This document shows, piece by piece, positions 1,380 through 56,914 of a stretch of 64,000 bases of DNA. The DNA comes from Bilabrum cf. latius (Eukaryota). The DNA lies in assembly GCA_965178125.1 (NCBI GenBank), contig OZ237768.1:1-64000 (forward strand), given 5' to 3'. The notes under the pieces were generated by a model, which saw only the letters and a list, made by a program, of their open reading frames with translations, was not told where the DNA came from and searched no databases. Each line of letters opens with the position of its first letter. Positions within the stretch are counted from its first letter, which is position 1. A program made the translations under genes and the position numbers.

Positions 1380-1388
1380 TCTACCCCT

Positions 1389-1802: not shown

Positions 1803-4389
1803 TCACTGCACCAAGCCCGCACGAAGCATGGTGCCTCCAAGCGGTAGAGCTCCAATGTCAATCTTGACGTCGAAGGATCCATCTCCTAGCCAAGTTATGC
1901 GCGACGGGTCCACTGGAACCCAGCTTGCATCGCGTCTTGCATGCGTTGCAACTGGGTTGGGAGTCCATTGCTCCACACGAACACCAACGGTGTGACTGGC
2001 ACCGAGCACTCGACCCGCACCACGGACTTCGACCAGGACGGTTCGACCATTCTGTTGCTCGCTTGCGCCGCTCGAGCCATAAGTCAGGATAGGCATGATC
2101 AAGCTTCGCTCCGCACTACCGCTTCTGCCAGCTGCGGGCACCGTAAAGCAGTTTCCAAGCACCTGCCCCGGGGCCACAAGGGGGCTATCCCCAAAGGCAA
2201 ATGCGGCGTCGGAGTCAACAAATGAGCAGATGCTATGCGCAACCGCAAGCTCTCTGCCTTGCAAGGCATCAAATCCAGGCGTCCACGGCGCGTACTGCTG
2301 CTGGTCATGCACAGAGAAATCGATTGCATGGTCATTATCGGGATACGGCGCCATGGGCCACACGCCCATATATAGGTGTCGGTGGAAGAACTGCAGCGTT
2401 TCAGTAGCATTACCGCAGCACCCAGAGGACCCGCCAGGATAAACCCACAGGATGGCCGGGGATGCTGCTCCCAAGAGTCCCACCGCGTTGATCGCGTGAA
2501 ACTCGCTGAAGGTTCCATCGAATGGCTTCATGAGATCCAGACGAGACACGCCTGTGTTCAGCAGCATCAGCCGCGGGCCTGCAGGCTGAGACTACCCACT
2601 GCATTGTGGGTCGTCGATTGCAGCTCTGATCCGGTCAGCAGTGTGCTGGAAAGAGACCCGCAAGGAGCGCACTGCCCGCCCCTGCACGGTGGACACGCCG
2701 TCGTCGGCATCTAGGTTATACTGATTAGTATGATCGCTACGGTCTACCACGATTCCATTGAATGGCAGAGTGGAGGCCATGCCACCACCTGAACCAGGCA
2801 CAGACAGGTTGCACGCATGCCGCAGCAGCTGGTCTTCCGAGGAAATCCTCGTACACAGGCACAGCGGAGTCCAGCACGATCCCTCCCTACCAGGTGCCCT
2901 GCAGTTCGCCGATGTGCAGCTTACCATCCCCAGATGCCCAGTTCCAGAGGGGGCCCCCCTGCAGCGAGGTCTCCAGGAAGCGGGATGCATTGCGCCAATC
3001 GTCCGGGGCGGGCTTAGGGGGATTGGGCGAGGGCGAATACTTCACGTTGAGGCCGAACTCATTGAAGTTGAAATAGGACAGTTGCGTGATAGGCCCACCC
3101 TTTGAGTTTTCGCCCATGGCAGCATAGTACTCTGCGATTTGCCGCCTGCTAACGTTGGCAGGTGCTTGCGTGCCCTCAGGGTCGTTGTGCCACTGCTCCT
3201 CGTCGCTCTCTACGGGGGGCAGAAACATGCCCATGTACGGGAAGAACCTCCCGCTAAGGTCCCACCCCACCCTGACCCCCTGATCCTAACCCACTGTGGC
3301 ATTAGGCACCGCAAAGTAAGACGAGTACGTCCCCAGCCCGGACGCTCGCTGTGCCGCCTCTTGGCCACCGTGAGGCCTCCAGTACGCGGCATTCGAGGAA
3401 CCTGGTGATACTTCCCAACGAAGAGCGTCCCGTGGATCTGACCTGTGCGGGACGATGTCCCAAGAGAACGAGTAGCTTGCAGCTGGCCATGCAGAGGAGC
3501 CACCCGGCGGGCATGACAGGCGGGCGGTGCGCTGCCTCAGCACGAAAGATGACGGGGCTAAGCCGGGCGGCGAATCGTCCTGTGGTTTGCGCCCTGGTGT
3601 TGCGCTGGTCAAGAAGTACACATCGAGCGGCTCGTTCGTCGGGTCCAAGTGAATTCCGAGGGCTGCATCGGTCGGGCCTGCCGACGAAGGAGGCAGGGAC
3701 AGCACAGCAATCGGGGCGACTATTCTGTCATGGATGCCATCTTCTGGGACTTCTACACCTAATCGATACTTGCCGGCCCACCAGCCGTCGTGTCCATCCG
3801 AAGGCAGCAGCGGGTCTACGTAGAAGCTGCCTTTCGCTCCATTGGATTCCCTATCCCACGGAGCCCATAGTCTCGGCATGCTTGCATAGTCGTTAGCTAA
3901 TACTGATAGTCCAACATCGATCGGTACGGTAAAGTATGCGCTGCCAGTCTCTGGAGAGCACTCCAAAGCAGAGACTGCCGATATGACTGTAAATGATTGG
4001 CGGGTGGCGTTCCACTCAATATTGTCTTGGACACTAATGCGAGCCGACCCATAGCTCAAAGAGACGTTGAATTCCTTCTGGACCTTGATAGACTTTGACG
4101 TAGGAGATGCCACGCAAGAAACCGGGTGGACGTCTGAAGCGTTGTCACCGAGCCCGAGCGAGGCACCAAGCCCAAACGACTAGCTGCCTGGATAATCAAA
4201 TGGCTGTCCAATCGTAAAGTTTGCGACTCCAGGTCTGTCCGTCTAAAACTCTGGCGCAAGTAAAACTCCTGCGGTGGTAGCTCCACAGCCTGAGGTACCG
4301 GAGAGCTGCAGGCTTCCGTCGGGACTGGACAGCTCCCAAGCAACAACTGACTCTATTAATACTGCCATCAGTGTTGCCAAGCCAAGCAT
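1803..4389 (-). CDS. Secreted protein, about 860 aa, possibly glycoside-hydrolase-like; 5 in-frame TAG plus one apparent 1-nt frameshift near 2837
   Basis: ATG at 4389 gives the signal-peptide-like MLGLATLMAVLIESVVAW. Track ORFs 3286-4113 and 2887-3270 are joined by TAG (4243, 4180, 3286, 2887), and 2592-2990 joins 1803-2567 through TAG at 2592. The frame changes at ttc ctc g gaa gac cag (YEDFL-EDQLLRH). Motifs YFNFNEFG, FNGIVVDRSDH and GVWPMAPYPDNDHAI look like a globular enzyme. Ends TGA. Function is inferred. Confidence 0.7.
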
Positions 4390-4686
4390 CGCACGTGCCC
4401 GCTGTTTATGTGCATGATACGCCGGACCTGCAGATTGTCTGAATTTGCATCATCATGAAAAAATACGTTACTGGTCCTCGTGCTGACTTTCTCGCTGGGT
4501 TTCTCGTTGAATCAACAAAATATCAGACCCCCCCATGAGTTTCTCGCCCACTTGAGTCAGGTTGGGGCTACTGGTACCCTAAGATGTGCTGAAGTAGCCC
4601 GGAATGATGCCAATGGATTCGAAAGGTTTAGCGGCGCAGAGGTAATGCACACTGCCAAGAAACGTTCTATCTTTGTAAATATTCAT

Positions 4687-7600
4687 TCAGTTGAGGGCTT
4701 CTCCGCCCGCTTCAACTCCTAGCCCACGAACCATGGAGCGCGAGGGCCTGACGTGCCGTTCCGAGGCACCATGCTGTTGGTCGGGATAGCTGAGTCCGCT
4801 GAATATGCCGGACCCCTGCTGGTCCCTTGCTGCTCTCTGCGACCGCTTCCTTCCACTCTGAGGTTGCGTTGGTAGGGTGCTCAGTCCGGGCGCAGGCGCG
4901 GCACCCCCCCACTGTTCAGATGGACGCGCTGCTGTCCTCCTACCGGCGGGGGTGACGCCTGTGCCCACGCGAGTCGGTGGGACGGACGAGCTCCTCCCTC
5001 CTCTTGCAGGAGTGGCCCTGCGCTGTACAGCGCGCCTGGCATCTGGCGGCAGTGGAGGAGCCACCTGCTGCTTCAAGATGCGGTACAGCGCCTGTGTGGA
5101 CTCGCGCTCTTGTACTCTCTCTTGCGGCTTTGGCTGGGTCTGACCCGCTGGAGCAGAGGCTTGTTTCTAGCTGCTGTTCTATGCCTGAGACTTGCCGACG
5201 TCGGATTCGTCGGCGAACCGGAGTCTCCTCTTCGGGGACATGCTCGAGGACACTGTCGTGGGCACGTCAGCTTGCCTGCTGGCTTGTGCCTGCGCGGGAC
5301 TGGCTGCAACTTGCTGCCTGCTGGCCTCTACTAGCGGCGAGGATGCCCCTGAGCCGGTGAGGCCGATGGTTCTCTGCCCAGCGGCAGGGAGCTCAGATGG
5401 ATTCGATGCCCTCTAATCAGCCGCAGGCACTGGACCACTGGCCGCCTGCCCGGGTCCCAGCCCGTCGTCCCCTCTCGTCCTCGGGTCTATCACTCGCCGG
5501 CGGTGCTCCGTACCGCTTGCCTCTGGCTGCTGCAGGAGTGCCCCCGCCCCCACGCCGGCCCGCATGCGCTGCGAGTCTTCACCTTTGCCGCGCTGCGTGG
5601 GCCGCGTCGGCACTCGCCCACCTGCGTGCGGTAGCCCCCCACGCTCCGAGCTCGCCTCGCGGGACAGCTCGGTTGGCCTCGGTGGGGCTGGCATGGGAAT
5701 CACCGAAGCGGGCGCACTCGATCGAGCAGCCATGCCCTGGGGTCGGTCCGGGTCATCAATGCCGCTGATTTCGTCCGCTGCACCTGCAGATCCGCTGCTG
5801 CCTCCCAGCACAGAGGCGGACTTGGCTGCGAAAGCGGCGGCTTCAGCGCCGGCCACTCTATCCCTGGCTTCTGGCAGCCTTAACGGGTCATTATTGCCGC
5901 CCTCCATGACGCCAAATCTGCCAAGCCCTTCAAAACCTAGCGCCTGGCTGTCTTGTCCTAGTCGCTCCCGCGTAGCGGCAGCTACCTCGGGGGGCAGCAC
6001 CCCCCTGGACTGGCCGAGTGACACGAAATCACGCCACGACAGCAGTACCTCGCCATCCTTGCCCCGGGCGCTTGCACCCTGCGCGGCAGCTTTCCGCTTC
6101 ATGGGTGCCAGAAAGGCGTCCGCCTGTGCTTGGCTGCACGGGATGCCCGCCTCGAGGAGTGCCCTACGGAATCCTGACAGCCGCACCCTGCCTTGGGAGT
6201 CTCGCTTGAGCCGGAGCCAGGCCCCCCGCAGCCCCCCTCTACGAGTTTCCATCCTCTCCTTGAGCACAAGGGAGTGCCTTGCTTCTTCCAAGGAGTCTGC
6301 CAAGGCCACGCGCTCTACTACAGGCTACAAGGCAGCCTGCGTGCCGCGGCTGTCGGTGATCGGTCTCGCGGGCACTTCTGCAGCTGCAAGAGCAGAGGCC
6401 GAGGAAGGAGTGCTGGCAGCACCGGCTCTGGGAGAGGCTCCCTGCTGCACGGCCTCGGCTGTCAACGCGGCACTGTCCATCACTGCTTGATTAGCGTTGG
6501 ACCCTTGCGGCAGCGGATCGTCGCCCTTGATGGCGTTTGCAAACTCGTTGTACGAGATAGACCCGCTCATATCGTTGTCGAGACGCAGCAAGAACAGCGC
6601 GAATTCGGGCTGCGACAGGGCAATTCCATGCCTCGCGAGACCCACGCGCAGCTCCCGGGCAGACACGCGGCCATCCTTGTCGGGATTCATCCGGAGGAAC
6701 AGCTTTCGCATGCCTCCTTTCCGCTCCAGGTTGGTTGCAACCTTACGCAGCAGCGCGTTGCTCTTCTTGCCCAGCGCGAGCGACTAGGATGGGCCCGTCC
6801 TCCCTCGCGTCTGGCCCCCGTCGGCCTGCTGCCCCATGGCCAAGAATGGGGCAGGCGAGCCCCATGTGTCGCGAGGAGGCACGGCATCCTTCGATCCGGC
6901 TGTTCCATCCTACCGTGCGTCCTCGGGCTTCCGCACAGGAAGGTAGGGGGCAGCTTGGCCAAAGTCTCGTTTCCGCTGGGCCTGCGCAGTCATCGCGCCA
7001 GATTTGTCTCGCTGCCTTTCGCGGGCGCCCACAAATACCCCGTCTTCGTCAATGTGCCCCGCCCCATCAGCATCCTCCTCTACCCCCATCCGCTTGACTA
7101 CCTCCACGACAGCAGCAGCCTCTGCTGAAGAGAGCGCATCCGGATCTAGCGCGCTGCCCGGGGCTCGCTGTGTCATGCCTGCAGATGCCTTCTCGGCCTG
7201 CAGCTCTTCCGACCCTACCGCCCCTCGCGTGTACGAGCTCATCACCATCGCATTCGGGCGTCTCTTCCCGCGACCGAGCGCGCCGTGGTCGCCAGCTGGG
7301 AGCACGTGCACGGTGGCGAAAGGATCAACCCCGGGTGGAAACAAAGTCTTCACAAACGTCTTGCAGTCTACGAGTCCGGAATCGGTTTTGTCGAGTGCTC
7401 TCAGAAGTGGCTCCCTGTCTTCTTGCGGCACCAGGACACCCATGTTGTCGAGACCCTCGAGCACCTCGTCCTTCGTGAGCAGCCCGTCACGCTGGGCATC
7501 CAGCCTCAGGAAGGCGCGGCTGGGAATCGGTTCAATCTCCTCCAGGCGGCCAGCCACTCGCTGGCACGCACGTCGCACGATGGGATCCGGGTGCTGCAGC

Positions 7601-10068
7601 CCGCTTCCAGCTGCCGCTCTGGCTGCCCTGGCAGACGCAGATTGGGCAAGCACGGCTTCCACAGCGGACTGAGCCAGAGTGGATGCACCCCCGATAGACG
7701 CAGACCCACTCGGTACAGAGCCAGGTGCACCCTAGGTGCTGTCTGCACTGTTGGCGCTACTTTGCACGCGACCCTGCGTCCCTCCTTCCCCATGCGATCG
7801 CTGCCGCACCCCGTGCTCCGTCTCAAGCCGGAGCGAGGTGGCCCGCAGCTCCACCGGGTCCAACATGGCTGCGAATGTAGGGAAATCAACTCGAGTCTAC
7901 AGATCCACATTCGATGGCCCACGTGATCGCTCCGGCTTAGCCTGCACCCCCGCCAGCACCGCCAGCGCCGTCAGCTCGCTCTCGTCCACGCGGACTCCCA
8001 TCCCACGAAGGCCTTTCGCTGCCTCTCCCAGAGTTGTCGTCCCCTGGGCGCTTCGGGGCAAACGAAGGAATGCCTTTCGCAACGCTGCCCCCGTGTCCTG
8101 ACTGGCCCCTTGCCCTGCGACCACCACGCCTGCATTCTAGTCAGGCCGCATGACGAAGCGCCCGCTCCCTCCCGAGGACACGTCGCCATGAGGAACAGCT
8201 CCTCCCACCTGCTCAATGCGGTGGGCGATGCGCCGGGCCACCCGCAGCCTGGCTTCTTGCGCCGCTTTGGGAATGCCAGCGGGCGTCTGTGGCCCGCCTC
8301 GGGCAGCAGGAGCAGTCATGGCAAAGGCTGGCGCATGGGCCAACGCAATCTCGTGCGTGGACATCCCTGCAGCCGGAAGCTCGTCGGATCCAGCAGCCTT
8401 CTTATCGAGTATGTGTATTCCTTGCGCTCCTTGCAGCTCTCCATCGGCGGACTTGCTCTCTTCTTCTCCGCTGCTCGGCTGTTCTCCCTGCTAGTGCGTG
8501 CCCTGCTCGGTGCGCTGCCGGTCCACCCACTCGTGGGTACGGCTCAGCATCGGTGTAGCACCACCCTTGCCCTCAATGAGGCCCTCCTTCGACAGACGGG
8601 TCCCGCTCCTTCCAGCTGCGGCAGCGTCCCTGGCCCTGTCCACTGCCCGGGCGAACTCGACATAACGCAGCCTCGCCTAGTTTGCGTCATGCTCTTGGGC
8701 TGGATCCCGCCCTGCCCACCGCAGTACGTCTGCTGCAGACACGTCTCGTGCCCCCGCTCGACGCAGCGCAGCGGCAACGTCGCCAGCAGAAGCGTCACCA
8801 GCAGATCGTTCAGCAGACTCACCCGATGCCCCGGTCATTCGTCGAGCCGCGTCGATCACCACCCCTGCATCTCTTGCCCCGCCCTTGCCCTCATCGTCCT
8901 CCATCGTGCCCAGCATTGTACGGCGATCGCCCTCACTCAGGTACTCACCGCGGCGGGCGGCAGACGCAAGTCTCCTGAGGTGGTGTGCCCGGGCTGGCGT
9001 GATACTACCCCTATCAGGTTCGGAATCCATCGCCGCAAGCGACGCCTGCTCTGCCTCCTGGCCCCTGACCCCCTTCAGCCAGAACTGCATCAAGTGCGGG
9101 CCTCCCCCTGGACCAGAGGGGCAGTGCTGCTCCAGGCCGCGCACAGTCTGCTCCGCCACCACGGTTTCTCGCTCCTCTGCTGCCTCACAGTCCAGCGCCG
9201 CCCCACCACTGGCAGGCTCGTCCATCCCGGCGAGGGCGCGCATACCAGCTGGGAGTCTGACGGGTGTCTTGGCACCTGCCTTTCCAGGGGCTCTGCCACC
9301 CGCCATCTTGGTGATCGCAGCGCGCCCCACGGGCTCAGTTGTGGTGCGCTCCCGCAGCTCGCCCTCAGTGGACTGCAGGGCTGCTCTGGCCCGAGAGCTA
9401 TCGTGGGCTTCTTGCGGAACATCATTATGTGCAATGGCTCTGCTCTCAGCGGTGTGCGCGTCTGCCCGTCTGGTCGTTTGGGGGACTGCGAAAGGGATAT
9501 CAGAAGCGGCGATGAGCGGGTGATCATGATCAAGGCAATTTGGAATCCAGCGGCATCCACACAGCATCTTACCTCGACGCTTCCCTGGCAACTTGGAATC
9601 AACAATTCCGGACAGCTAGCCGGCACCAGGCTGTATATGGCTCTGAAGTGCGCTGTGCCCAGCAACGCGCATCAAGCCTCGCATTTCCGACTCTGACGCG
9701 TGAACTCCTAGCTTGTCCAAAGCACCAGCGAGGGCATTCAGACCAGCTAAGTTTCTCTCTTGCACATGATTCTGCCCAAACAGCGGTCCCCGTGGTCGTT
9801 GTAACCGAGCAGGCTTCTAGACTCGGGCCTTGCGTCCCTTCCTGCCAAGCTCAACGCCTCGTGCGCTGGCTGCAGCCTCATCAAACCTGGCTGTAGTTGG
9901 GAGAGAATATCCATCCGTACCGCCACGCATGCGTGAGCTGTCAAGCTTTGCAATGCTGCCGGGATCCGGGGCACGACCAACAGGTGGAACCAGCACCTGC
10001 TTTGCTGCTAGTTTTGGTTCGCCAAGAAGGGCTGCACCCCCCTTTAAAGAGGATTGCAGCGCAGCCAT
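4687..10068 (-). CDS. Large multi-EF-hand calcium-binding protein, about 1760 aa, 13 in-frame TAG
   Basis: One frame from ATG 10068 to TGA 4687 when TAG is read through (9817, 9616, 8677, 8491, 8137, 7897, 7732, 6910, 6784, 6325, 5413 and two near 5167-5181). EF-hand loops: NPDKDGRVSARE, DNDMSGSISYNE, DAQRDGLLTKDE, DKTDSGLVDCKT. Probable 87-nt in-frame intron at 9486-9572 (GTAAG...TTCGCAG). Confidence 0.85.
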
Positions 10069-13600: not shown

Positions 13601-14073
13601 GGGAGCGCCTAATCGCATCGCTTCTTGCATTGCCACCGAATTTGTCGGAGGACAATGTCAGGGTGAATGCCAGGGCGGCAACACCCGAACCCGACCCATA
13701 CCGAGACGAGGTAATGGACGATTCAGCTGCCGGGGGCAGAGCGGCTGGTCGAGGCTTGCAGGCTGGCGCAGCTGCTCGAGCGAATGCGATGGATGCAGCG
13801 TACTTGGAGGACGAGGAGCGCCAGCTGGAAGACCCGAGCGCGCTACTTTCATCTGAGAAGGGGCTGGACCACCTCCGCAAGGCGCTGGGGATACGTTCGG
13901 GTGGACAAGGCGAAGAGATGGTTGGAGGCCCTGAGGACGAAGGAGATGAAGAAGACGAAATCATGCTGACGAGGGCGGACGTGAAGCACATTTCGTACAT
14001 GATGGTAACGGAGAACCGGCCTGAGCAAGATGACGAAGCGGTGTGGGATGAAGCCCCTAGTCGTGGCAGGTGA
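10668..14073 (+). CDS. Coiled-coil protein resembling outer dynein arm docking-complex subunits (ODAD1/ODAD3, CCDC114/CCDC151-like), about 1094 aa, 4 in-frame TAG
   Basis: Exon 1 is 10668-11765, then a phase-0 intron 11766-11886 (GTGAG...CTAAC...CGCAG), then exon 2 11887-14073 ending TGA. TAG at 11760, 12028, 12748, 13078. LEAAFQRIRAATGLADTEAIVERF matches my recall of the ODA-DC coiled-coil signature. Confidence 0.72.
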
Positions 14074-14158
14074 TGAGATCCGGAGCCGTTTACTGATTCC
14101 TCAAAAGCATCTGACTACAATTACAAATTTCATCCGGGAGTACTTCCAATCATTGAGG

Positions 14159-21286: not shown

Positions 21287-21571
21287 TTAGAGCCGCACGT
21301 TTTATTTTATCAAACTGCACGACACACCGGGTTATGTACGCTCGTCATCGTTAGTGTGCTCCCACACACACCGCGCAAACTGGGACGGGCCGTGCTTTAC
21401 AGTGCACTGCAGAAGATGTACTGCACTGTGATGCAGTGCCTGCCGATCCTCAAGCAGAGCTGCGTACGCAGTTTTGGAGCCACTTCGAGAGTATTGGTTT
21501 ATATTTTGCTGAATTTATAAGATTCATAAGAAATTTCAGTCAAATACAGTGAATAAAGTAGATATTAGGGC

Positions 21572-44684: not shown

Positions 44685-44807
44685 GTAAGAATAGACCATT
44701 GATTCAACTAGATTTGGATTGGGCTTAGGGCGATGTGTTGTACCAAACCACACGCAACTCGAAACACAAATGCGATATTCTCTGCCAAGCACTACTATCC
44801 AGCCAGC

Positions 44808-46334: not shown

Positions 46335-46518
46335 GACTGGACAAGGATTTCGGATGCACATGAGACTCTTCAATGCAGAAGCCTTTGCTCAACAGGGAAT
46401 CCATCCAACCAGGTATTCATGTTTCCAGATTGTGGATTCGTTGCTCCGGCCACCGGTTCGGGTGCTGGCGCTACCCTTGGATCGACTGCGACAGCCCTGC
46501 AGCCAGGCCCACACCAAG

Positions 46519-49320
46519 TTATGGGTGAATAATGTCATTCCACACCTCTACCACCACGTGCACTTCGTTGCCCCCGTCGTGCACCACCTGCAATCCCCTC
46601 GGCTCCCCTGGCATGAGGGTCACATAGTTGTCGCTCCAGTACGAGACCAAGTCCGGCTCCCCATCTCCCACCTGCTCCTCGCCATCACTACCACTAGCTG
46701 GGCCCGGACGAAGCCTGAGCCGCACGAAGAATGCGAGCACACGGGGGCTCGTGTTCTGCACCTGCACGTCCGAGATGCACCGGCCCAGAGCCTGGATCCC
46801 TTGCTGCTGCACGGCAAGCCCGCTGCCGGTAGGTTGGCACTTGGTCGAGGTGATGCTGGCGTGCAGCGAGTTTTTCACGGAAGGCATGCGCTGCAGGGCC
46901 GAGAAGTCAGCCAACACCGAGCAGTTGCACCTGTAGAAGTTGCACTGCTCGAAGTCCACTTGGTCCTGCTGTTCCCCTAGCCAGTAGTGGTTCACAGCCA
47001 CAGGGTTACCGAGCTGGGATGCCCGCCGCAGCTCCAGCCGCAGAAAAGTGACCCCACCCGAGCTGATTGCAGCACGACTTACCTCTTCCTGGGGGATCAT
47101 CAGCACGTCCACCACTCCATCAGCTGGCACGGACCCTCCAGTCAGGTTGCGGTCTAGCCTCCAGTGCGCGTGCCCGTCGGGACCGAGCAGCAGGGCCATA
47201 ACAAAGAGCGGGTCGCTCGAGTTGCCGCTCGGCTCGTACATTGAATTCACAACTCGCACTTGACCGCTGACCGGGTCGTACTGCGGGTGGAGCGGCTCCA
47301 AAGCCCGCTGGACCCCAAAGTATGCCCCGCCAGTGTTGAGGTACTGGTCGTACAGGTGCCAGATGTGCTGCGGGAGGGCGTTATTCAACATCCACTGGAT
47401 TACCCCAGTGGCATTCCTGTACTTGAACGCGCCGTACGACTCGAACATCGCCCGGTGGCTCTCGTAGGCAGCCGCCTGCGACCGCAGGAGGAACCCCGGC
47501 GCGTCTTCTGCCTTGCCGTACCTCTGCTCCAGGGGCCCCAGGAAGAACCGGAGGCTGCGGAACAGACCGTGCTGGTTGCCGCAGTGGAAGTCCCACACCT
47601 CGGAGGAGGCCCCCTCCGCCCCCCACAGCTGGTCAGCGGGCACAGTCCTGGCCCAGCTCTCGAGGGCCATGGGGCTGGCACCCGGGCTAATCTCAGTCGA
47701 GAACCCCGACGCTCCCCCGAGGGGCCCAAAGGACCGCGGATCCGTCCAGTAGCTCGGGGGTACCCACGCGTATGGGCCATTCATCTTCACCCCCGACGGA
47801 CCAGAGAGAGGCGAGTCCACAGCGGAGGCAGCCGGCAGCGTGGGCAGATCCCAAGCCGCCTCGAGGGCCTGCCGCGCATACGCCGCCTCCACCTCCTCGG
47901 GGGGCAGTTCGTCGCTCGAGAGCAAAAAGGCCAGGGAGCTGGGGTGCTGCCGGAACCGCAGCAGCTGGGCTCGCACGCTTGCATTGGCCACTGCCCTCTG
48001 CTCGGCCCCCCACAGCTTCCAGTTCTGCCAAGCATCGCAGCAGCACAGCCCAGGGAGGGCCAGCAGCCCCCACTGGTCCATGCGCTGATATAGGTCCTCG
48101 TCCTCGAACTTCCCCTCGAACCGAATGGCGTTGAGCCCCAGGGCCCGCACGTGCCTCAGCTGGGCCTCATTGCGCTCTGGGTCGTGTCTCTGCAGCAGGT
48201 CCGGTGCCCAGCCCCCACCGCGCACCAGGAGAGGCCGGCCGTTCACACGGAAGAGGCGGCCCCCACCGTGATCATCCAGTTCCGAGCTTGCCTCCCGCAG
48301 ACCCACCATAGCTGATGCGCTGAATGCAGCCTGCTGCTGGTGGTCGGCCCGGAACGCAACTGTCAGGTTGTGCAGCGGCTGTGCACCCATCTGCCACGGC
48401 CACCACAGCAGGCCCCGCGCCGATGCATCTCGCATAGCAAGCCCATCGCACTGCTTTGCACCCACCGTCACGACCAACCTCCCATAGGCCCGCCCCTCTG
48501 GCCCTGCCCCTGGCGCAATGCCGCCCGCGGGAGCCCCTTTCACTAGCACTGCTCCGACAGTGCAGTGCACGTCTTCTCCCAAGGTTATCGTAATGCTGCC
48601 GTTGATGGGAGCATTGTGGAAGTTTCTTAGCTCTGCGGATACAGTGATGTCCGCAACGTCATTTGTGGCGTTGAAATTGGTGCTCGCGGCGGGGTGGCGC
48701 ACCGCCACTGGAGCTCCGGGGTCCAGTGGATCCAGCTCCACGGCACGCCACAGGCCGGCATTCCCATCGGGTGGGTCAACGGACCAATCTACAACGTCAA
48801 TCGCGAGGTCTGTTGCATTTCTAGTCCAAAAGACATCGTGTGGCCGCTGCACGAGAACGGCAACGCACGACTGGCCTAGGCCTAGACCAGAGCCCCGACT
48901 TCCAGCGAATTCGAAGTCCCGAAAGGTTCCAACAACACTGCGGTTATCAGCCACATGAGCTCCGTCTATCCATACATCAGCACGATAGTTAATTCCAAGG
49001 AAACGCAGCGTGTATGCGCTTGCAGGCGCATCGAAGCAGCTGCGCCACCAGAATGCAGGATCAAAAGCTGCTGAATCGACCTAGAGCAACGTCGTGTTGT
49101 AGTACAAGTTCGTTGGCACGATTCTATTTTCCCTAAGTACCTCTAGCGCAGTTGAGGGTACTGTGGCATTCCACCACGATGAATCATCGAACGACAGCAA
49201 GGATATTGTCGCTCCAGACCCTATCACGGAGTCAGATGACGCTACTTTCCACGATGTCAGTCGATATGCACTCACTATTGCATCAAATGCCAGCGAAATC
49301 GCGATAATTCGTCGCAACAT
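46519..49320 (-). CDS. Secreted GH2 exo-beta-D-glucosaminidase (CsxA-like), about 933 aa, 1 in-frame TAG
   Basis: Signal peptide MLRRIIAISLAFDAIVSA from ATG 49320. TAG at 49081 joins the N-terminal ORF to FLGINYRADVWIDG and the 811-aa ORF. Motifs: LWWPWQMGAQPLH, NGRPLLVRGGGW, GLNAIRFEGK, CCCDAW, FLLSSDE (acid/base Asp), GVKMNGPYAWVPP, FSTEISPG (nucleophile Glu), TGVIQWMLN. Ends TAA. Confidence 0.92.
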
Positions 49321-49485
49321 CGTGTGTATGGTGGATGAAAAGCATGGCAGCAACTTTATATCGGAGTTTGTACGGTGTGATTCGGTGGAGAGAGCCGGCA
49401 AAAACCTATCGCTGGCATTAACGCAACAGCGCGATTTTGTGGCTGCAAATCAGAGGAATTTATTGAAAACACGGTACATGGGCCC

Positions 49486-52400
49486 ATGAAGCATCCTGAT
49501 CGCTGTCTAAGGGTGATTCGTGCCGACTCTGCCAAAGACTCCGTACATGCATGGTCATCACCAGAGGAAGCAGCATTTCTGCTGACCCCACGGAACGCCA
49601 GAGCCTAGCCGTTTGCTTACCCGCGCGGTAGCTCTGTGATTGGAGCTCGTGGCAATGGTAATACCAATGTGAAGGTTGGCACCGCGGTAGCTCCAGTGGA
49701 TGGCGCTGCAGGCCCATAGGACGGTGCGGCGGACGAGATTGTGGTGCATCCCAAGGTAGAGATAGCTGTAAATCAGAGTGTATCCAGCGCCTCGGCCCGT
49801 CTTGAGTTACTGGCGCCGAGGCTTGCATGGATGTTGCCGCGGTCCGAAAAGAGCTAGCAGCAGCTGCAGTACCGCAAGAAGCGTGGCGCACCTATTTCTG
49901 GTGGGTGTGCGTGCATTTCTAGACCGATGTTTGTGGCCCTTTGGACTCGGTTGCTGCTTCCCTGGGTGCTCGTGCTCGTTGCCATGCTGCTGCTGCACGC
50001 TGCCAAGTGGCCATGGATTGTCTGGGCCTGGCGCGTGGGAATTAAGGGCACCAGCAGAGCGGAGGCAGACCGACTGTGGGAATCTGTCGTGTTCGCAGGG
50101 GACAGGGACGCTGGCGCCGCCGAGCGAACCCTGCTTGGGCCCCAGCTGGAGCTGCTCTGCGTGGCACTGCAGTTCGCACTCGTCACAGGGCTCACGTGGG
50201 CCATGACGGAGGCGCACGCCAGCGACCCCGGGATCGTGCCTCCCGCGGTCACCCGACGAGCAGTGGCCCTGGCTCTGCTGGCGGAAGCCCCTGCCCCCGG
50301 GCTGCGCATGGCCAGGCTCCGGTCCCAGGGGGCAAGGGGCTCCGAGGAGGGTCCCTGGCAGGAGGCGGGGGCCGTGCCGCTGGGGCCGCTGGGGGAGGGG
50401 GAGCTGCTGGGGGCGGCGGTGGCGCGGCTGGGGAGGGCAGGGAGAGCTCAGGGGGACTCGGGCAAATCGGTGGCTTAGGCAGTGGGCTCTGCGCAGTCGT
50501 TGCAGCTGGCGGTGACTCGTGAATCGGTCCGTGCAGGGATGCAGCCGTGGGACCCTCGCTGGCTGGAGGTGAAGAAGTGGGGCCGGCGCATCGGGACCGT
50601 GAGGGTGTGCGGGTACTCTGACCCCGTGGCCTGGTCGCATCCTGCAGTGCGATGCACCCATGCCGGTGCACAACCAGGGAAGGGTGCAGCTGGAGGTGCG
50701 GGCCTGGCAGCGGCAGAAGCTCGTGCTGCAGCTCTGCAGCAGGACCCCGTGCCCCTCGGGGTGCGGGCCCGGCTAGTGGAGGAGGGCGAGGACGAGAAAG
50801 CTCCTCAGGGCGGGGCACATGCAGACACGCGGTTGGTGTCAACAGCAGCGGTTGCAGGCTCTCGCGATCTGATGCACCCGCTGGAGCCGCACCTGGACGG
50901 CCAGGTGGCGGGCTCCTTCGTGCCGGGGCACAGGGGAGCCAAGGCATTCGTGGGGGGGCGTGGGACCGTGCAGCCGGTGAAATCAGATTCAGCGCATTAC
51001 TGCGAGCACTCGGGGCGAGTCATCTCAGGCATGGACCACTTCTGCCCGTGGCTGGGCGCCAACATCGGGGAGGGCAACCGCAGGGTCTTCCTCGTCCTCC
51101 TGTCCCTGGCTGCGAGCTCCATGGCAGTGCTCGTGCTGCAGTCCGCCTCGATTGCGGCGGGGGCCGTCACTGGGCTGCGATAGGCCGTGGCGGCCGGCCC
51201 TTGGCTGATCGCGGCTGCCACATGCGCGGGGCTGGGCATGGGCGTGGGATCTTTCGCTGTGCACCACTGGCTGCTAGCCTGCCGCGGGCTGACCACGGTC
51301 GAGTACGTGGAGAAGAGGGTGGCGGGGACCCAGTGGTCGAGGGCGGCTGCTTGGGAGATGCGCCCGGGGCAGCTGCGCGAGGAGGAAGACAGCACACCGG
51401 GGAACAAGGACGAGGACGAGGTGCCACCCAGTGCTGCGGCGGAGGCGGGCAGGGGCACGGGGGGCACTGGGGTGCGCGTCCCGCCGTCTCTGCGCTTGGA
51501 GCGGGAGGACTGCGACTTGCGGCTGGCCTCGAGGGCAGCCACGGGGACCGGCACGGCGCGCGCCATGGCTCTCCTGCAGCGGCAGAGGACCAGCGAGGAA
51601 GACGCGAAGAATGCGTTCAGCTCGGTGCCTATGAGGCTGGCGCGGCAGGCGTGGGCAGAGGTTCAGCCCGCCCTGGCACCAGCGGCATCGCTGTCAGGGG
51701 GCACTGCAACGAGCTCGGATCCTGCGGGTAGTAGCGGTACTGAAGGTGAGGAGGAGGATGACGCGGCGGCGCCTGGGGCCTGTGATTCGGTCTTGAGGGC
51801 CAGCACGTGCGGTGCCTGCGGCTCCAGCGACGCGTACTTGGGCGAGGGGCCGTGGGCGGCAGGAAGGGATGCGAGTGCTCTGCTGGCGCCGGGAGCCCCT
51901 GCCTATGGAGATCCGGACTCGCAGGGAGCTGGCATGGTGATGCGGCCAGATGCACGTGGTGGGGCGGAGCAAGGGGGTGATTCTACCGAGTCTGAGGATG
52001 GAGACAGGCTAGGCCATCGGGCGCGCATGTCGTGGGCCCGTGTGGGACCCGGGGCTTACAGCAGGGGCTGCCTCGCGTGGGTGCTGGTTCTGTGTCCCTT
52101 CCGGTGCCTGAGGTCCCAGGCCTGGGCCAGGGCAGGCTCCTCCCCCGCCCCCGCCTCTCGGAGGGCGAGGGAATTCCGGGCGGCTCAGCTGCTGCACCGT
52201 TTCCCTGCCCACTGGCTGCACGTCAGCGAGCGGGACCCCCTGCAGGTCCCTTTGCATCGGGATCGCGCGAGTCTGGTCGCTGCTGCAGAGCTGAGGACAG
52301 ACATGTGGATCAGATCGTAGGACAGGAGGATGGCCGCGACAGGGGGCAAGCAACTTTTACACCCAGGAGAGGGACCAGCGGCTGCTGCTACGAAGGGCAG

Positions 52401-52524
52401 CCAGGACGAGGCGGTGGCCAAGGCGAGTCAGGAGGCTGCGTCGGGATCGGGATCGGAATCGGGATCGGGATCGGTGGGGATTTCGCGCGGCGGGCGCGGC
52501 GAGGCAGGGCTCGCGTTGGGGTGA
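49486..52524 (+). CDS. DHHC-family palmitoyltransferase-like protein (DHFC variant), about 1012 aa, 6 in-frame TAG
   Basis: A single frame from ATG 49486 to TGA 52524 through TAG. Transmembrane helices, SDPGIVP, AHYCEHSGRVISGMDHFCPWLGANIGEGNRRVF, then TM3/TM4 and GLTTVE (TTxE). The TAG at 51181 lies between TM3 and TM4 within the conserved domain. Confidence 0.85.
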
Positions 52525-52675
52525 ATCTCATCGTAATTGAGTTGTGAGCCCAGCCGGATCTGCACTTTGTCCAGAAAGAACTAAAAGCAAGGTATCCAAA
52601 TCAAACACGGATTGACATGCATGCCAAACGCCCAGACCCGCGTATCCTATGGATCAGATATCACGGATCTTTGGA

Positions 52676-54084
52676 TCACACCTACGCTCCGCCTGCCAGC
52701 TTGCGCAGCAGCCCCAGCGCCTCCTCGAGCGCCTTGCCCTGCCTCGCCTGCTCCTCCCGGAGCCCCCTCACCTCCCCTTGCAGCGTCTAAACAGCCGCGC
52801 TCACCTCCGCTAGCACCGCCACCTGCGCCTCCCTCGCGCTGCTGCTCGCGGACCTCCGCCGCTCTCCTCCACCCCTCCGCACCCGCTTCTCCCCCGCCCC
52901 TTTACCCCCCGCACCACCCATGGGATCAGCGCCCTCCCCATCGATGGTCTCCAGGGCCTGCGCCATGGCCCGCGCCGCCTCGGCCGCGCGACTGCCGGGC
53001 GGAGAGGGGGACAAGGAGGGCATCCCCCCGAGGCCTGCACCCCCGCCTGGGTCCACCCGACCCATGCCCAATCCACCCGTGGACTGCCGCCCCCTGCCTG
53101 ACGGGGAGCCACTCTGCCCCCTGCCCGCCCCCGACAGCCGCCTCCCACCGAACTCAGGCCGCCTGCCCCCAGCCCCGCCCCCGCCAAAGCCATCCGGCCC
53201 GCCCCCGCCAGCCTCAGGGGACAGACCGACGGCTCCATCCAGGCTGGGCAGCGGGCTGGCGTGGGTGCCCGTGCCGGGGCTGGATCCGGATCCCTGGCTA
53301 GGCCCACCTCCGCCTCCACTTAGCGAGCCACCGGCAGTTCCGAAGCCCCCCGTGCGGCCCATCGCCCCTTGCCCTTGCCTGCGGCCCGCGGGTTCTGCCG
53401 ATCGAGGGCCTCTGCGGTGCACATCGGCGGCAGACGCTGGCCGGCGAGCTTGGGGCGTGGATATCTTGCTCGTGGCTCCCGGCCCCTTGAGGATCGCACC
53501 CCCTCCGCCTATGCCGCCGCGGGGCCGGGCACCATCGGTGACGCGCTTTGCCGGGGCCTCTGCCTTGCAACTCTTCAGGTGAATAGCTAGTCGGTCCGGC
53601 AGGAACGTGCGCCCGCAATTGGGGCAAGACTCGAGCTGCTTGTCGTTGAACTCGCGGAAGGCAGCGTCGTTCGCTGCTCTGAGCTGAGCGTCGGTCATGC
53701 CGGAAATGCCCCCCGCTCCAGTTGGTCCACCCTTCATGCCAACACCGGCCGCAGAAGCAGAAGCAGGCCTCTGCGGCGTCACAGCACCGCCGTCCTCTCC
53801 TCCGCCGGGTCCACCCAGGTAGGCCGGTCTCGCCGGAAGCTTTTTGCGCTTGCCCCGAGGCAGCTACGATTGCTCCGAGAGAAACTTCTTTTCGCAACTC
53901 TTGAGATGGATCATAATGCTAGCGGTACCTGCGAAGATCATGCGATGTATGACAGGTAGCGCACGCTCCGGCCGTAGGTGGTGGTCGGTCGCTGTCTGGA
54001 ACGGTATCTTGGGTCAATCTGTTTATTCTCACCGTACTGCCGACCACAGAGGTGACAAATGACAGCTCGAGGCATTTTGCCCAT
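52676..54084 (-). CDS. C2HC-type zinc finger protein (ZNF474-like), about 434 aa, 3 in-frame TAG
   Basis: Exon 1 54033-54084 (MGKMPRAVICHLCGRQY-G), intron 53929-54032, then TASIMIHLKSCEKKFLSEQS*LPRGKRKKLP. Second finger CPNCGRTFLPDRLAIHLKSC. A C-terminal coiled coil continues through TAG 52787 to TGA 52676. Confidence 0.85.
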
Positions 54085-54283
54085 CTAAAACCCCGCCATC
54101 GTGTCGCCGTTTCGGGAGGCTCGCCTTGTGTAGATTCTTTCGTCGGGTTTCCGTTTTCGCCTCGATTTGCAGTACAGTGCGATGATTTATAAAACCGGAA
54201 CAACATGATATCAAATTGCAAGCCATTCGTTTGGCACAGATTTGCTCCTGATAAACAGTATTCAACGATTTGAGCGAAGTAAA

Positions 54284-56914
54284 ATGAGTTCAGTTAGTGG
54301 ATAGTCTTCCGATGATCACATCAAAACATTCCCTGTGTCAAGTGCAGCGCGGCCTGACGCAACTGTTCGGCTCCGGGCCGCGCTGCACTTCAACAGCTCA
54401 GATTGGCAGGCGTGTGCATCTTTGGATACCAAAGAAGGGACTACTGTTGAGGTCGAAGATGCATGGGCTTCGTTTCAGGTGCCTTTGCTCCATCACGATA
54501 TTGCACCGGGGCTTCCCTGCCCTACTTCTGATATATCTGAGAACGACGTGAAGCTTAGGTTTGAGAACAAATTGATTGAGATAACTGCCAGAGTAGTGCG
54601 CTGTAAACTAAATGCTGTCCGGCCTGCTCGAATACCCATGGTTTCCAGCGCCAGTGCTGGCGGTATTGACGAACAAGACCAGAACGACCATGCATTTGTT
54701 GTACCGTTTCGGCGTCCCTGGCTCATTTATCTCGCCGGGGGCCCCGGAGCGGCGGTCTCTCATCGATCGCCCAGTATGGAGTACATGGCTCGACTGCTGC
54801 GGGCGGGCTACGTTGTAGTGCTGCTGGACCAGCGGGGCACGGGCGAGTCCACTCCTGTGCAAGCAGAGCGCCCGCCGCCCAATGCAGGTACCAGAGACAC
54901 CGAGTCTAAGGGTGGTTGCAACCTCTCCCGACTGTGTGGCTCGGTCTCTCCCGGCTGGCAGGCTGCCTACCTCTCCCTCCACCGGCAGGACTCGATCGCG
55001 AGGGACGCCGAGGTGCTGCGGCAGCTCTTGCTGGGGGCCGAGTGGAGCGCGGGTGGGCATGACAAGAGCGTGGAAAGGGGCAAGGGATAGGTCGAGGCGG
55101 GTGCTGTCGATCCATCCCACGCGCCTTCAGCTGCATCGTCCCGGTCCAGGTCTACCCCTGAAGAGACCTGTCGCCTAGCTGTCCAAGGGGCCCTGCAGGC
55201 AGCGGCCAGAAGGGGGGCGCCGGCGACTGCTTCGGATAGCTGGACGGCGATGGGGCAATCGTTCGGAGGGTTCATTGCCTTGGAATGGATGAGTCGGTTC
55301 CCACGCTGCCTGGCCGGAGTCATGCTCACTGGCGGGCTGCCGGGTCTCGAGGCATGGCCGGAAGACGTGTACAGGCACACTGGGCGGGGCATGATGGAGA
55401 TGTCCAGGCTATTTGCCAGGAAATACCCCGAAGAAGCGCGAGTTATGCAAAAGGTGTGGCAGCTGCTTCTACCGAGGGCGGGAGCAGCCAGCGGTGGAAG
55501 CAGCGCTCGCCCGGGGGTGCTGCTGCGGTTCAACATGCCCGATGCACCCGGTCCGAGCTTGCCACACAGTGCGAAAAGGAGGAGGATGAAGGCCGCCACA
55601 GGAAGTGCGGTGAAGCCGGAGAAGGCTGCAACCACCGGTAGTCCCTCCGCAGCTGGCGAGGCATTGGTCCCTCCCACCCGCCCCCCCACGTTTCACCCAT
55701 CACCCAGATCGGAACAAGCTTGCATTCGGCTAAGTGCACGCATGGTACGGGTGCTGGGCTGCAACATGTGTTCCGGCAAGCTGAACAAGATGCAGCAGCT
55801 GGGGTAGAAAGCCCTCTTCGCAGCGGTGCTGGCCAGCACCCAGGCTCGAGTTGAGGCCAGCGCGGCAGGGGACATGATCGACCAGAGACGCATCTTGTTT
55901 GACTGGGTGCGTGACCATTACGGTGGCGAGGCACTTCTGGAGATGCAGGCCGCCGTACAGCGCGCGATTGAACAGAGGGGTGCAGAGGAGGTGCGTGCCA
56001 GCGAGGGACTAGGCATCATGTCTCTGGACCTTCTGGAGGCGAGCGTGCCCTTCCAGCTGCAGGCGGACAAGGACATTTCATGGACCCGCCCGCTCTACAC
56101 TCTGCTACAAGAAGCCATTTACATGCACGGGGGTCCTGGGCGGGCCTCCAACAGAGCCGCTGAGCGCACGCTGAAGGAGCTGAGCCCAGCCTATGCCGAG
56201 GCAGACGCCGCGGAGAGGGGCGAGGTGCCGGCCGGGGAACAGCACGGATAGGTGGCAGCCGAGGGGAGCCAGGCTGCACCCACCCGGGCGTTTGCCTGCC
56301 TGGGCCCGGGAGATGCAGCAGGGGATGCACCCCGCTCTGCAGCATCAGGAGGAGTGACTGACGCAGCCTCCGCCAGGGCAGCGGCTGGCCTGGTGCCACA
56401 CGTGGGGCCCGCCCTGCCCTTCTTCGGGGAACATGCCACGTCCGGTCTGTGCCAGGATATCCCTTTCCTGCGCCCCCTGGCCCGGGTCGACGCCATGCTG
56501 CACGCCAAGGACGACTGGCCCGCCCTCTACGACCAGGAGGGGCTGGCACGGTGCACCGCCCCCGTGGTTGCGCAGGTCTTCAGAAAGGACAGGTTCGTGC
56601 CCTACGAGCTCTCCATCGAGACCGCTAGCAAGATCCCGCGGTGCAAGGTGGTGGAGGACACAGTCAACGGACACTTTGGTCTGTTCTCTGACCCGAGCGT
56701 GCTGCCCGGTATGCTCGAGCACCTGTGGGACATGCAGGGGATGGTGGCACCGGCAGAGGTACCTGGTACGAGCGGTGAGCGAGTGGCGCTTGCAGCCGGC
56801 GGGAGCTTGGTAAGGCCGGTCGTCAGTGTTGTGGCCAGCGCCGACGGGAAATCCTCGCAGGCTGGGGCTGCAGCTGAATCTAGTGAGAAAAGCAGCAAGT
56901 GTGCAAGCAGCTGA
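54284..56914 (+). CDS. Proline iminopeptidase-like alpha/beta hydrolase (peptidase S33), about 876 aa, 4 in-frame TAG
   Basis: ATG 54284 to TGA 56914; TAG at 54302, 55088, 55805, 56249. Motifs FQVPLLH, YLAGGPG, LLDQRGTGESTP, DSIARDAEVLR, GQSFGG (Ser), PLYTLLQEAIY, DWPALYD, DRFVP (Asp), NGHFGL (His). The catalytic triad is spread across TAG-separated fragments. Confidence 0.9.

What the first reader, a model, noticed from the sequence alone, without database searches (positions are those of the whole stretch)
1803..56914. Non-standard nuclear genetic code: TAG is a sense codon across the window
Seen in the sequence: in 12 of 13 genes, neighbouring track ORFs lie in the same frame and are separated only by TAG (roughly 130-140 by manual count). 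Two frames stay open for about 10 kb (21.6-32.0 kb and 34.9-44.7 kb) with dozens of TAGs and no TAA/TGA. TAGs interrupt conserved domains: they separate the Ser from the Asp/His of the peptidase, TM3 from TM4 of the DHHC protein, and the signal peptide from the body of the GH2 enzyme. Read-through also supplies proper ATG starts at 4389, 21286, 34383, 44808, 49486 and 54284. Pseudogenisation would give all three stop types and frequent frameshifts. Inference: UAG has been reassigned from stop to sense genome-wide.
Basis: partly seen in the sequence, partly recalled or inferred. Interest (0 to 1): 0.97.

Follow-up and report, generated by a model that had tools for sequence, protein, structure and literature searches.

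The report
TAG codon read as glutamine
In this GC-rich chromosome end of an unidentified single-celled eukaryote, the stop codon TAG is used inside nearly every gene and stands where relatives have glutamine, so the organism uses a rare variant of the genetic code.

Summary
In 16 open frames (13 genes, 18,598 codons) there are 138 in-frame TAG and no in-frame TAA or TGA. Every frame ends in TGA (13) or TAA (3). Reading TAG as sense opens frames of 3477, 3276, 2375 and 1824 codons. Reading TAA or TGA as sense does not. Contigs from two further studies carry GT..AG splice joints, so they derive from RNA. They keep the TAGs unchanged, including one in the first exon of a spliced transcript.

TAG most likely means glutamine. 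One TAG sits at a column that is Q in 12 of 12 homologues. At 5 of 6 TAG sites covered by close relatives the relative has Q, and E at the sixth. TAA and TGA remain stops; the GH2 enzyme ends in TAA at the family's usual C-terminus.

This is the UAG-only-to-Gln code already known from Iotanema and some ciliates. The organism is unidentified. It is not Amoeboaphelidium, which has 40% GC and also reads TAA as Gln. No suppressor tRNA or eRF1 gene lies in the window, so the mechanism is inferred. I rate it a new member of a known kind, of moderate to high interest.

The parts
1..1388 (.). Telomere, (CCCTAA)n on the + strand, about 232 copies. The window starts at a chromosome end.
1388..1658 (.). 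Subtelomeric tandem repeat: 54-bp unit, 5 copies.
1803..4389 (-). Gene of an unnamed secreted-looking family, as two ORFs (2725-4389 and 1803-2990) joined by an intron or frame change. It has 6 in-frame TAG and ends in TGA at the family's C-terminus.
2887..2889 (-). TAG at codon 501 of ORF 2725-4389. It aligns with an invariant Q ([ST]-W-Q motif) in 12 of 12 homologues that cover it.
4687..10068 (-). EF-hand protein gene: 1793 codons, 13 TAG, ends in TGA.
10668..14073 (+). Coiled-coil gene with a weak ODAD1_CC match, as two ORFs (10668-12206 and 11908-14073). 5 TAG.
14159..21286 (-). IQ-motif protein gene: 2375 codons, 20 TAG, ATG at 21286, ends in TAA.
21617..32029 (+). Frame of 3470 codons with 46 TAG and no TAA/TGA. 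It includes a Q/H-rich stretch (codons 1010-1110) with 20 Q and 10 TAG. No known family found.
32203..34383 (-). Gene with a (Pro-Ala)n repeat and a weak WH2 match. 5 TAG in the main ORF. ATG at 34383 lies in a separate short exon that has 2 more TAG.
34905..44684 (+). Frame of 3259 codons with 29 TAG, a C2 domain, and a conserved C-terminus ending in TGA. One zero-difference contig of run X5 covers it whole.
41394..42341 (+). Stretch holding five TAG codons (2164, 2295, 2392, 2478, 2479; starting at 41394, 41787, 42078, 42336, 42339) where the closest relative has Q. TAG codon 2360 (41982), where the 96% relative has E, also lies in this stretch.
44808..46334 (+). SGT/STI1-like TPR gene. Exon 1 is 44808-44923, the GT..AG intron is 44924-45034, and exon 2 runs to the TGA at 46334. 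TAG at codon 12 (44841-44843) is present in the spliced contig.
46519..49401 (-). GH2 exo-beta-D-glucosaminidase-like gene. One TAG (codon 107, 49081-49083). It ends in TAA at the family's C-terminus.
49486..52524 (+). DHHC palmitoyltransferase gene with 6 TAG. All 6 lie in zero-difference pieces of runs X6 and X7.
52676..54116 (-). zf-C2HC gene. A minus-strand GT..AG intron of about 104 nt (53927-54030, cut may lie 2 nt further right) is removed in a contig of run X7, which restores the first zinc finger. 3 TAG in the main exon.
54284..56914 (+). S33 alpha/beta-hydrolase (prolyl aminopeptidase-like) gene. 4 TAG, all in family-unaligned insertions. Ends in TGA.
57096..60228 (-). AP-1 gamma-like adaptin gene, as two ORFs. 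No TAG. It is the one gene of 13 without one.

Best explanation
The organism's nuclear code reads UAG as glutamine and keeps UAA and UGA as stops. This is the pattern of NCBI table 15 (table number recalled).

Shown here:
- TAG sits inside transcribed, spliced, conserved coding sequences at about 0.74% of codons. If it is Gln, that is about 15% of Gln codons: 138 TAG against 545 CAG and 255 CAA.
- Where orthologues can be aligned, they have Q at those positions.

Inferred, not shown:
- A tRNA-Gln with anticodon CUA decodes UAG but not UAA.
- The release factor eRF1 has lost recognition of UAG.
- The trait is genome-wide and shared with at least one related species.
For: 1. Frames. 138 in-frame TAG against 0 TAA/TGA in 18,598 codons. 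Chance of no TAA/TGA in the four longest frames is 6e-39 to 1e-17. TAA-sense and TGA-sense controls do not open long frames.

2. No selection against TAG. In 21617-32029 there are 46 in-frame TAG against a mean of 47.5 in the other two frames.

3. RNA.
- A contig of run X6 joins 44923 to 45035 across a GTGAGT..GCAG intron.
- A contig of run X7 joins 53926 to 54031 across a minus-strand GT..AG intron.
- These two runs come from two studies.
- 40 in-frame TAG lie in 34905-54904. The listed zero-difference pieces cover 9 of them (X6) and 11 (X7), 12 in union. Those of X5 cover 38, but the tool guesses that X5 is probably DNA.
- The SGT exon-1 TAG at 44841 lies in the spliced X6 contig but is not among those 40.
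- The only letter difference reported over the 20 kb is A>G at 42802, which is not in a TAG.

4. Identity of the residue.
- Codon 501 of ORF 2725-4389 is Q in 12 of 12 homologues that cover it.
- In the 3259-codon gene the closest relative has Q at codons 2164 (95-96% identical fragments), 2295 (70%), 2392 (96%), and 2478 and 2479 (63% and 55% fragments).
- A 32% distant orthologue also has Q-Q at 2478/2479.
- Overall, 6 of 7 informative sites are Q.

5. Relatives' ORFs. Six of the nine close-relative fragments (P0139, P0147, P0144, P0145, P0140, P0146) end exactly one residue before one of our TAGs. This is what a standard-code gene caller produces if the relatives also carry an in-frame stop there.

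6. TAA and TGA are stops.
- GH2 ends in TAA where 69 of 120 homologues end within 5 residues.
- The 1803-4389 gene and the 3259-codon gene end in TGA at conserved C-termini.

7. No readthrough-type context. The base after TAG is A 0.19, C 0.30, G 0.32, T 0.20, close to the base after any codon.
Against: - At codon 2360 the 96% relative has E and the 70% relative has N. At 2164 the 70% relative has E, next to a gap. At 2295 the distant orthologue has V.
- The GH2 TAG column is variable (S 50, Q 14, N 11, A 10, K 9 of 120) and says nothing. Serine, the meaning of UAG in Scotinosphaera, is the commonest residue there.
- The neighbour-composition test did not single out Q. Log-likelihood ranked I, H, V and R ahead of Q. 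The residues most enriched next to TAG are N and H.
- No tRNA gene of any kind is in the window and no eRF1 gene, so the mechanism is untested.
- Only 64 kb was seen.
- By construction, a gene that really ended in TAG would be read on to the next TGA/TAA. The zf-C2HC frame has a TAG two codons before its TGA.
- The relatives' DNA was not seen, so their stops at our TAG positions are not known to be TAG.
Confidence: 0.9

Rival explanations
1. TAG is sense but encodes another amino acid: Glu as in some ciliates and Blastocrithidia, Ser as in Scotinosphaera, or Leu as in the rhizarian exLh.
For: - E stands opposite TAG codon 2360 in a 96% identical relative, and opposite 2164 in the 70% relative.
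- S is the commonest residue in the GH2 column.
- The context test does not favour Q.
Against: - Q stands opposite at 6 of 7 informative sites.
- These include an invariant column (12 of 12) and a Q-Q pair kept even in a 32% orthologue.
- Neither S nor L stands opposite a TAG at any site covered by a close relative; they appear only in variable family columns.
- With 95-96% identical relatives, two Q and one E is far likelier under TAG=Gln than under TAG=Glu (inference).
Confidence: 0.04
2. The code is ambiguous. TAG is glutamine inside genes but still ends some genes, depending on position or context, as in Condylostoma, karyorelict ciliates, or UAA in Blastocrithidia.
For: - This cannot be excluded by frame reading alone.
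- The zf-C2HC frame has a TAG two codons before TGA.
- Transcript ends lie close to the stops: contigs end 32 to about 110 nt after them. Short 3' ends are the setting in which position-dependent termination has been proposed (recalled).
Against: - 0 of 16 frames needs TAG to end.
- All three genes with a homologue-supported C-terminus end in TGA or TAA at that point: GH2, the 1803-4389 gene and the 3259-codon gene.
- One TAG within the last two codons of one of 16 genes is expected by chance about one time in five at 0.74% per codon (my arithmetic).
Confidence: 0.1
3. The TAGs are not translated. The genes are pseudogenes, the TAGs are assembly or base-calling errors, or they are removed by splicing or RNA editing.
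For: None found. In principle, a systematic C-to-T error at CAG would mimic this pattern.
Against: - Only one of the three stop types occurs, and there are no frameshifts in 10-kb frames.
- Contigs from three studies agree with the window at every TAG covered, and spliced contigs retain them.
- The two introns seen are short (about 104 and 111 nt) and do not remove the TAGs.
- Independent relatives break their ORFs at the same positions.
Confidence: 0.01
4. The code is standard, with unusually efficient readthrough of TAG by a near-cognate tRNA-Gln. There is no dedicated suppressor tRNA and the release factor is unchanged.
For: Near-cognate tRNA-Gln readthrough of UAG exists in standard-code organisms (abstract of PMC13192750, seen in the listing).
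Against: - 46 TAGs in one gene would leave essentially no full-length product unless decoding were near-complete at each one (inference).
- In-frame TAG is as frequent as off-frame TAG.
- No readthrough-type context follows the TAGs.
Confidence: 0.03

Closest known systems
Iotanema spirale (Fornicata): UAG to Gln, UAA kept as stop (PMC5304391 and PMC9161772, passages read)
   Same: Same code pattern: UAG is sense and Gln, while UAA and UGA terminate. It is a flagellated non-ciliate eukaryote.
   Different: Iotanema is an anaerobic gut endobiont known from a transcriptome. Whether this window is related to it could not be tested. Its eRF1 GTS-to-GGS change and predicted tRNA-Gln(CUA) could not be looked for here.
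Ciliates with UAG-only to Gln: Protocruzia tuzeti and two phyllopharyngean lineages (PMC11687900, discussion passages read)
   Same: Same reassignment of UAG alone to Gln.
   Different: The window has (TTAGGG)n telomeres on a large chromosome, 60% GC and ordinary GT..AG introns. That ciliates differ in telomere repeat and GC content is recalled, not tested.
Amoeboaphelidium protococcarum (Aphelida): UAG and UAA to Gln (PMC6299283 and PMC5304391, passages read)
   Same: A non-ciliate with stop-to-Gln reassignment.
   Different: Amoeboaphelidium genomes are 40.5% and 39.9% GC (Table 1 of PMC10608142); the window is about 60%. TAA is reported as Gln there, but here it is absent in frame and ends GH2 at the conserved C-terminus.
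UAG-only reassignments to other residues: rhizarian exLh (Leu) and Scotinosphaera (Ser) (PMC11687900 and PMC5304391, passages read)
   Same: UAG is uncoupled from UAA.
   Different: The residue differs. Here close relatives show Q at 5 of 6 sites and one family column is invariant Q.
Code 15 in crAss-like and Lak phages (PMC9523058, abstract in listing)
   Same: TAG read as Gln.
   Different: That is a viral, suppressor-tRNA-driven switch inside standard-code bacteria. This is a eukaryotic chromosome with a telomere, introns and eukaryote-type domain families (DHHC, adaptin, C2).

Membership tests
Nuclear code with UAG = Gln and UAA/UGA = stop (table 15 type) | In-frame UAG in genuine, expressed protein-coding genes | tested here: met
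   138 TAG in 12 of 13 genes. Spliced RNA-derived contigs retain them.
Nuclear code with UAG = Gln and UAA/UGA = stop (table 15 type) | UAG aligns with glutamine in orthologues | tested here: met
   6 of 7 informative sites are Q: one invariant column (12 of 12), and 5 of 6 sites covered by close relatives. The seventh is E.
Nuclear code with UAG = Gln and UAA/UGA = stop (table 15 type) | UAA still terminates | tested here: met
   0 in-frame TAA in 18,598 codons. Three frames end in TAA. GH2 ends in TAA where 69 of 120 homologues end within 5 residues.
Nuclear code with UAG = Gln and UAA/UGA = stop (table 15 type) | UGA still terminates | tested here: met
   0 in-frame TGA. 13 frames end in TGA, including conserved C-termini of the 3259-codon gene and the 1803-4389 gene.
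Nuclear code with UAG = Gln and UAA/UGA = stop (table 15 type) | UAG no longer used as a terminator | tested here: inconclusive
   No frame needs TAG to end, but only three C-termini are homologue-supported. One frame has a TAG two codons before its TGA.
Nuclear code with UAG = Gln and UAA/UGA = stop (table 15 type) | tRNA-Gln with anticodon CUA | not testable with these tools
   No tRNA gene in the 64 kb, no Rfam match, and no whole genome held.
Nuclear code with UAG = Gln and UAA/UGA = stop (table 15 type) | eRF1 altered in stop-codon recognition (such as the GTS motif change in Iotanema) | not testable with these tools
   eRF1 is not in the window and no genome is held.
UAR = Gln code (table 6 type; Amoeboaphelidium, many ciliates, hexamitids, some green algae) | UAA also read as Gln | tested here: not met
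   0 in-frame TAA against 138 TAG. TAA sits at the conserved GH2 C-terminus. TAA-sense reading opens no long frames.
Ambiguous stop/sense codes (Condylostoma, karyorelicts) | The same codon both encodes and terminates, by position in the mRNA | tested here: inconclusive
   No case of TAG termination was seen, but a 64-kb sample cannot exclude it.

The most novel reading that the evidence does not exclude
This may be a lineage not yet described as a code variant. It would be a GC-rich (about 60%), TTAGGG-telomere, intron-poor flagellate-type eukaryote that independently reassigned UAG alone to glutamine. At least one related species (63-73% protein identity) and several 94-96% variants, all known only from environmental or anonymous assemblies, appear to share the trait. 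If so, a stop-codon capture happened in a GC-rich genome, where loss of UAG through AT pressure cannot be the explanation.
Probability: 0.45. Interest if true: 0.7.

Novelty: new member of a known kind. Interest (0 to 1): 0.62.

Why it matters
- Only a handful of eukaryotic lineages are known to separate the meanings of UAG and UAA (PMC11687900, PMC5304391). Each new one is an independent test of how release-factor specificity and suppressor tRNAs co-evolve.
- A case in a 60% GC genome would bear on whether stop-codon reassignment needs AT-driven codon loss. Here in-frame TAG is as common as off-frame TAG.
- There is a practical cost. Standard-code gene callers break this organism's genes into fragments. 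The relatives found in public protein sets are such fragments, ending at TAG positions. Annotation, completeness scores and metagenome binning will be wrong unless TAG is read as Gln.

Tried and rejected
- Whole genome: none is held. No Codetta-style inference, tRNA survey or eRF1 check was possible.
- tRNA scan and Rfam scan of the window found nothing.
- The look-up of sequencing runs listed no holder on record as RNA. The RNA nature of X6 and X7 rests on the spliced joints only. The tool guesses X5 is probably DNA.
- Runs X8-X12 hold 6-9% of the sampled words.
- Metagenome scan with the SGT protein found no close relative; the best hits were 42-44% over part of the protein.
- GH2 family column at the TAG is too variable to use.
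- Peptidase TAGs fall in unaligned insertions.
- PDB searches with the two giant proteins gave no hits at E 0.1 or better.
- Neighbour-composition and adjacency tests for the residue's identity did not discriminate.
- Protein atlas search on adaptin gave no lineage signal.
- The adaptin homologue search was limited to fragments by the length filter. Identity was 35-41% to everything, with no lineage signal.
- Amoeboaphelidium hypothesis: rejected on GC (40% against 60%) and on TAA.
- Mikhailov et al. 2022 (recalled author and year; the call used only a recalled DOI) is not held. Karpov 2013 (author and year from reference lists read here) was seen only through citing papers.
- Literature: searches found no report of UAG-to-Gln in a GC-rich, non-ciliate, non-fornicate lineage. 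Subscription journals and supplementary files were not searchable, so this is not proof that none exists.
- The organism's lineage stays unknown. The best named homologue of GH2 is Cafeteria roenbergensis at 41% identity, which is too weak to place it.

Full report
What the window is. The window begins with about 232 copies of CCCTAA, followed by five copies of a 54-bp repeat. It is therefore the end of a eukaryotic chromosome with TTAGGG-type telomeres. GC content is 56-68% along the window and about 60% overall. From 1.8 to 60.2 kb the window is densely packed with genes on both strands. The last 2 kb are an 82-bp satellite.

Pfam finds eukaryote-type domain families:
- EF-hand, IQ and C2 domains
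- STI1/TPR
- a GH2 exo-beta-D-glucosaminidase
- a DHHC palmitoyltransferase
- zf-C2HC
- an S33 alpha/beta-hydrolase
- an AP-1 gamma-type adaptin

Checking the observation. I used 16 ORF models, which make up 13 genes and 18,598 codons. They contain 138 in-frame TAG and no in-frame TAA or TGA. Thirteen end in TGA and three in TAA. Reading TAG as sense gives stop-to-stop frames of 3477, 3276, 2375 and 1824 codons. The standard code gives at most 853, TAA-sense 869 and TGA-sense 957.

The other two frames of the four longest genes carry 39 to 88 TAA+TGA. The chance that the coding frame has none is therefore 1e-17 to 6e-39. TAG is present in 12 of 13 genes; only the adaptin gene lacks it.

- Two TAGs lie between the serine block and the C-terminal block of the peptidase, and both blocks align with the solved prolyl aminopeptidase 8jgn.
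- One TAG lies inside the DHHC domain envelope.
- One TAG follows the N-terminal hydrophobic segment of GH2, whose body matches CsxA at E 8e-91.
- ATG is present at all six claimed start positions.

Is the TAG in the message? One 10-kb stretch was used to find public runs, and four runs were laid on 34905-54904. All are Logan contigs, so depth and absence carry no weight.
- Run X1 carries the whole stretch in one piece and may be the source of the window.
- A contig of X6 joins 44923 to 45035, skipping 111 nt with GT..AG ends. It starts at 44808, the ATG of the SGT-like gene.
- A contig of X7 joins 53926 to 54031 across about 104 nt with minus-strand GT..AG ends. This restores the first C2HC finger of the zinc-finger gene.

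These two runs, from two studies, therefore contain spliced RNA. There are 40 in-frame TAGs in the stretch. The listed zero-difference pieces cover 9 (X6) and 11 (X7), 12 in union. The pieces of X5, which the tool guesses is probably DNA, cover 38. The spliced SGT contig carries a TAG at codon 12 of exon 1. The only letter difference reported in 20 kb is A>G at 42802, which is not a TAG.

Splicing and editing therefore do not remove the TAGs, within the limits of contigs, which drop rare variants. Introns exist but are few and short.

Which amino acid? The family column at the GH2 TAG is variable (S 50, Q 14, N 11, A 10, K 9 of 120). The peptidase TAGs lie in insertions. Composition of neighbouring residues did not discriminate. 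Two results did.

First, the gene at 1803-4389 belongs to an unnamed family with 13 database homologues. Its TAG at codon 501 (2887-2889) sits in a [ST]-W-Q motif that is Q in all 12 homologues covering it.

Second, I ran a full HMMER search with the last 1200 codons of the 3259-codon gene. It found:
- short fragments 94-96% identical to the window
- fragments 63-73% identical (one further cluster member at 55%)
- one unbroken 919-residue orthologue at 32%

Further members of the same clusters were read. The residues opposite our TAGs are listed below.

| Codon | Residue in relatives |
|---|---|
| 2164 | Q (two 95-96% fragments); E in the 70% relative, beside a gap |
| 2295 | Q (70% relative); V in the 32% orthologue |
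| 2360 | E (96% relative); N (70% relative) |
| 2392 | Q (96% relative) |
| 2478, 2479 | Q-Q in two fragments of the more distant relative and in the 32% orthologue |

The closest relative therefore has Q at 5 of 6 sites. With the invariant column, 6 of 7 informative sites are Q.

Six of the nine close-relative fragments stop exactly one residue before one of our TAGs. This is what a standard-code gene caller would produce if those organisms also carry an in-frame stop there. Their DNA was not seen, so this is inferred.

A Q/H-rich stretch of the 3470-codon protein has 20 Q and 10 TAG in 101 residues. TAG follows TAG 8 times in 138. This agrees with Gln but is weak evidence.

TAA and TGA. No in-frame TAA occurs, although CAA is used 255 times. 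GH2 ends in TAA, and 69 of 120 homologues end within five residues of that point. The 3259-codon gene and the 1803-4389 gene end in TGA at conserved C-termini. Both codons are therefore still stops. This separates the window from the UAR-to-Gln code.

Whether TAG still ends some genes cannot be settled from 64 kb. No frame needs it. One frame has a TAG two codons before its TGA, which is within chance.

Mechanism. The window holds no tRNA gene, no Rfam match and no eRF1. The mechanism is therefore taken from what is established for this kind of code.
- A tRNA-Gln with anticodon CUA reads UAG but not UAA.
- eRF1 has lost UAG recognition. In Iotanema the GTS motif is changed to GGS (PMC5304391 and PMC9161772, passages read).
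- The lack of any special base after TAG and the equal frequency of TAG in and out of frame argue for general decoding rather than site-specific readthrough.

Comparison with what is known. UAG-only-to-Gln is known from Iotanema spirale, Protocruzia tuzeti and two phyllopharyngean ciliate lineages. UAG-to-Leu is known from a rhizarian and UAG-to-Ser from Scotinosphaera (PMC11687900, discussion passages). That this pattern is NCBI table 15 is recalled.

I tested the idea that the organism is Amoeboaphelidium, and the evidence is against it. Its genomes are 40.5% and 39.9% GC (Table 1 of PMC10608142), and its TAA is reported as Gln (PMC6299283).

The organism could not be placed. The best named homologue of GH2 is Cafeteria roenbergensis at 41% identity. 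Adaptin is 35-41% identical to everything found. No close relative is in the JGI metagenome contigs.

Nine literature searches found no report of this code in a GC-rich, non-ciliate, non-fornicate lineage. Subscription journals and supplements were not searchable.

Verdict. I add that TAG means Gln and that TAA and TGA remain stops. The kind of code is known. The lineage may be new to the literature.

Noticed in passing
window 1-1658: The window starts at a telomere, (CCCTAA)n of about 1.39 kb. Five copies of a 54-bp subtelomeric repeat follow directly, and the first gene ends only about 150 bp further in.
   Followed up: partly
window 61969-64000: An 82-bp tandem satellite with at least 24 copies at 97-98% identity runs off the window's end. 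The ORFs listed there are artefacts of the repeat.
   Followed up: partly
window 32780-33222: A (GGTGCA)n hexamer array of about 74 copies encodes a long Pro-Ala repeat inside the gene at 32203-34383.
   Followed up: no
window 41529-41531 (codon 2209 of the 34905-44684 gene): One 94-96% identical variant in the public protein set has its ORF broken at this codon: P0135 ends just before it and P0144 starts just after it. Our sequence has GAA (Glu) and another variant, P0145, has E. The type of stop in that variant is unknown. A single change from GAA would give TAA, not TAG.
   Followed up: partly
proteins P0134-P0147 (relatives of window 41082-44681): At least two distinct variants 94-96% identical to the window, and a more distant relative (63-73% identical in the search hits, 55% for one cluster member), exist as ORF fragments in Logan, ENA and JGI-derived protein sets. 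This points to a species complex present in environmental data. The fragmentation is what in-frame stops cause for a standard-code gene caller.
   Followed up: partly
window 42802: The only letter difference among the four laid runs over 20 kb is A>G in one low-depth contig of run X7. It may be an allele or an error.
   Followed up: no
window 21617-32029: In-frame TAG (46) is as frequent as TAG in the other two frames (mean 47.5). The best-conserved genes (adaptin 0, GH2 1, SGT 1) have few. TAG therefore looks like a freely used but minor Gln codon, concentrated in long low-complexity proteins.
   Followed up: partly
window 1803-4389: This gene belongs to a family of about 700-850-residue proteins with no Pfam domain and no name in any source. 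The family has a conserved G-[ST]-Y-S and [ST]-W-Q-x-x-[IV]-V-x-D pattern, and this copy has an N-terminal signal-like segment. It may be an uncharacterised secreted enzyme.
   Followed up: no
window 34905-54904: Intergenic spacers are very short. Contigs of runs X5, X6 and X7 break at gene boundaries 30-110 nt past the stop codons. Only two introns (about 104 and 111 nt, GT..AG) were seen in 20 kb.
   Followed up: partly
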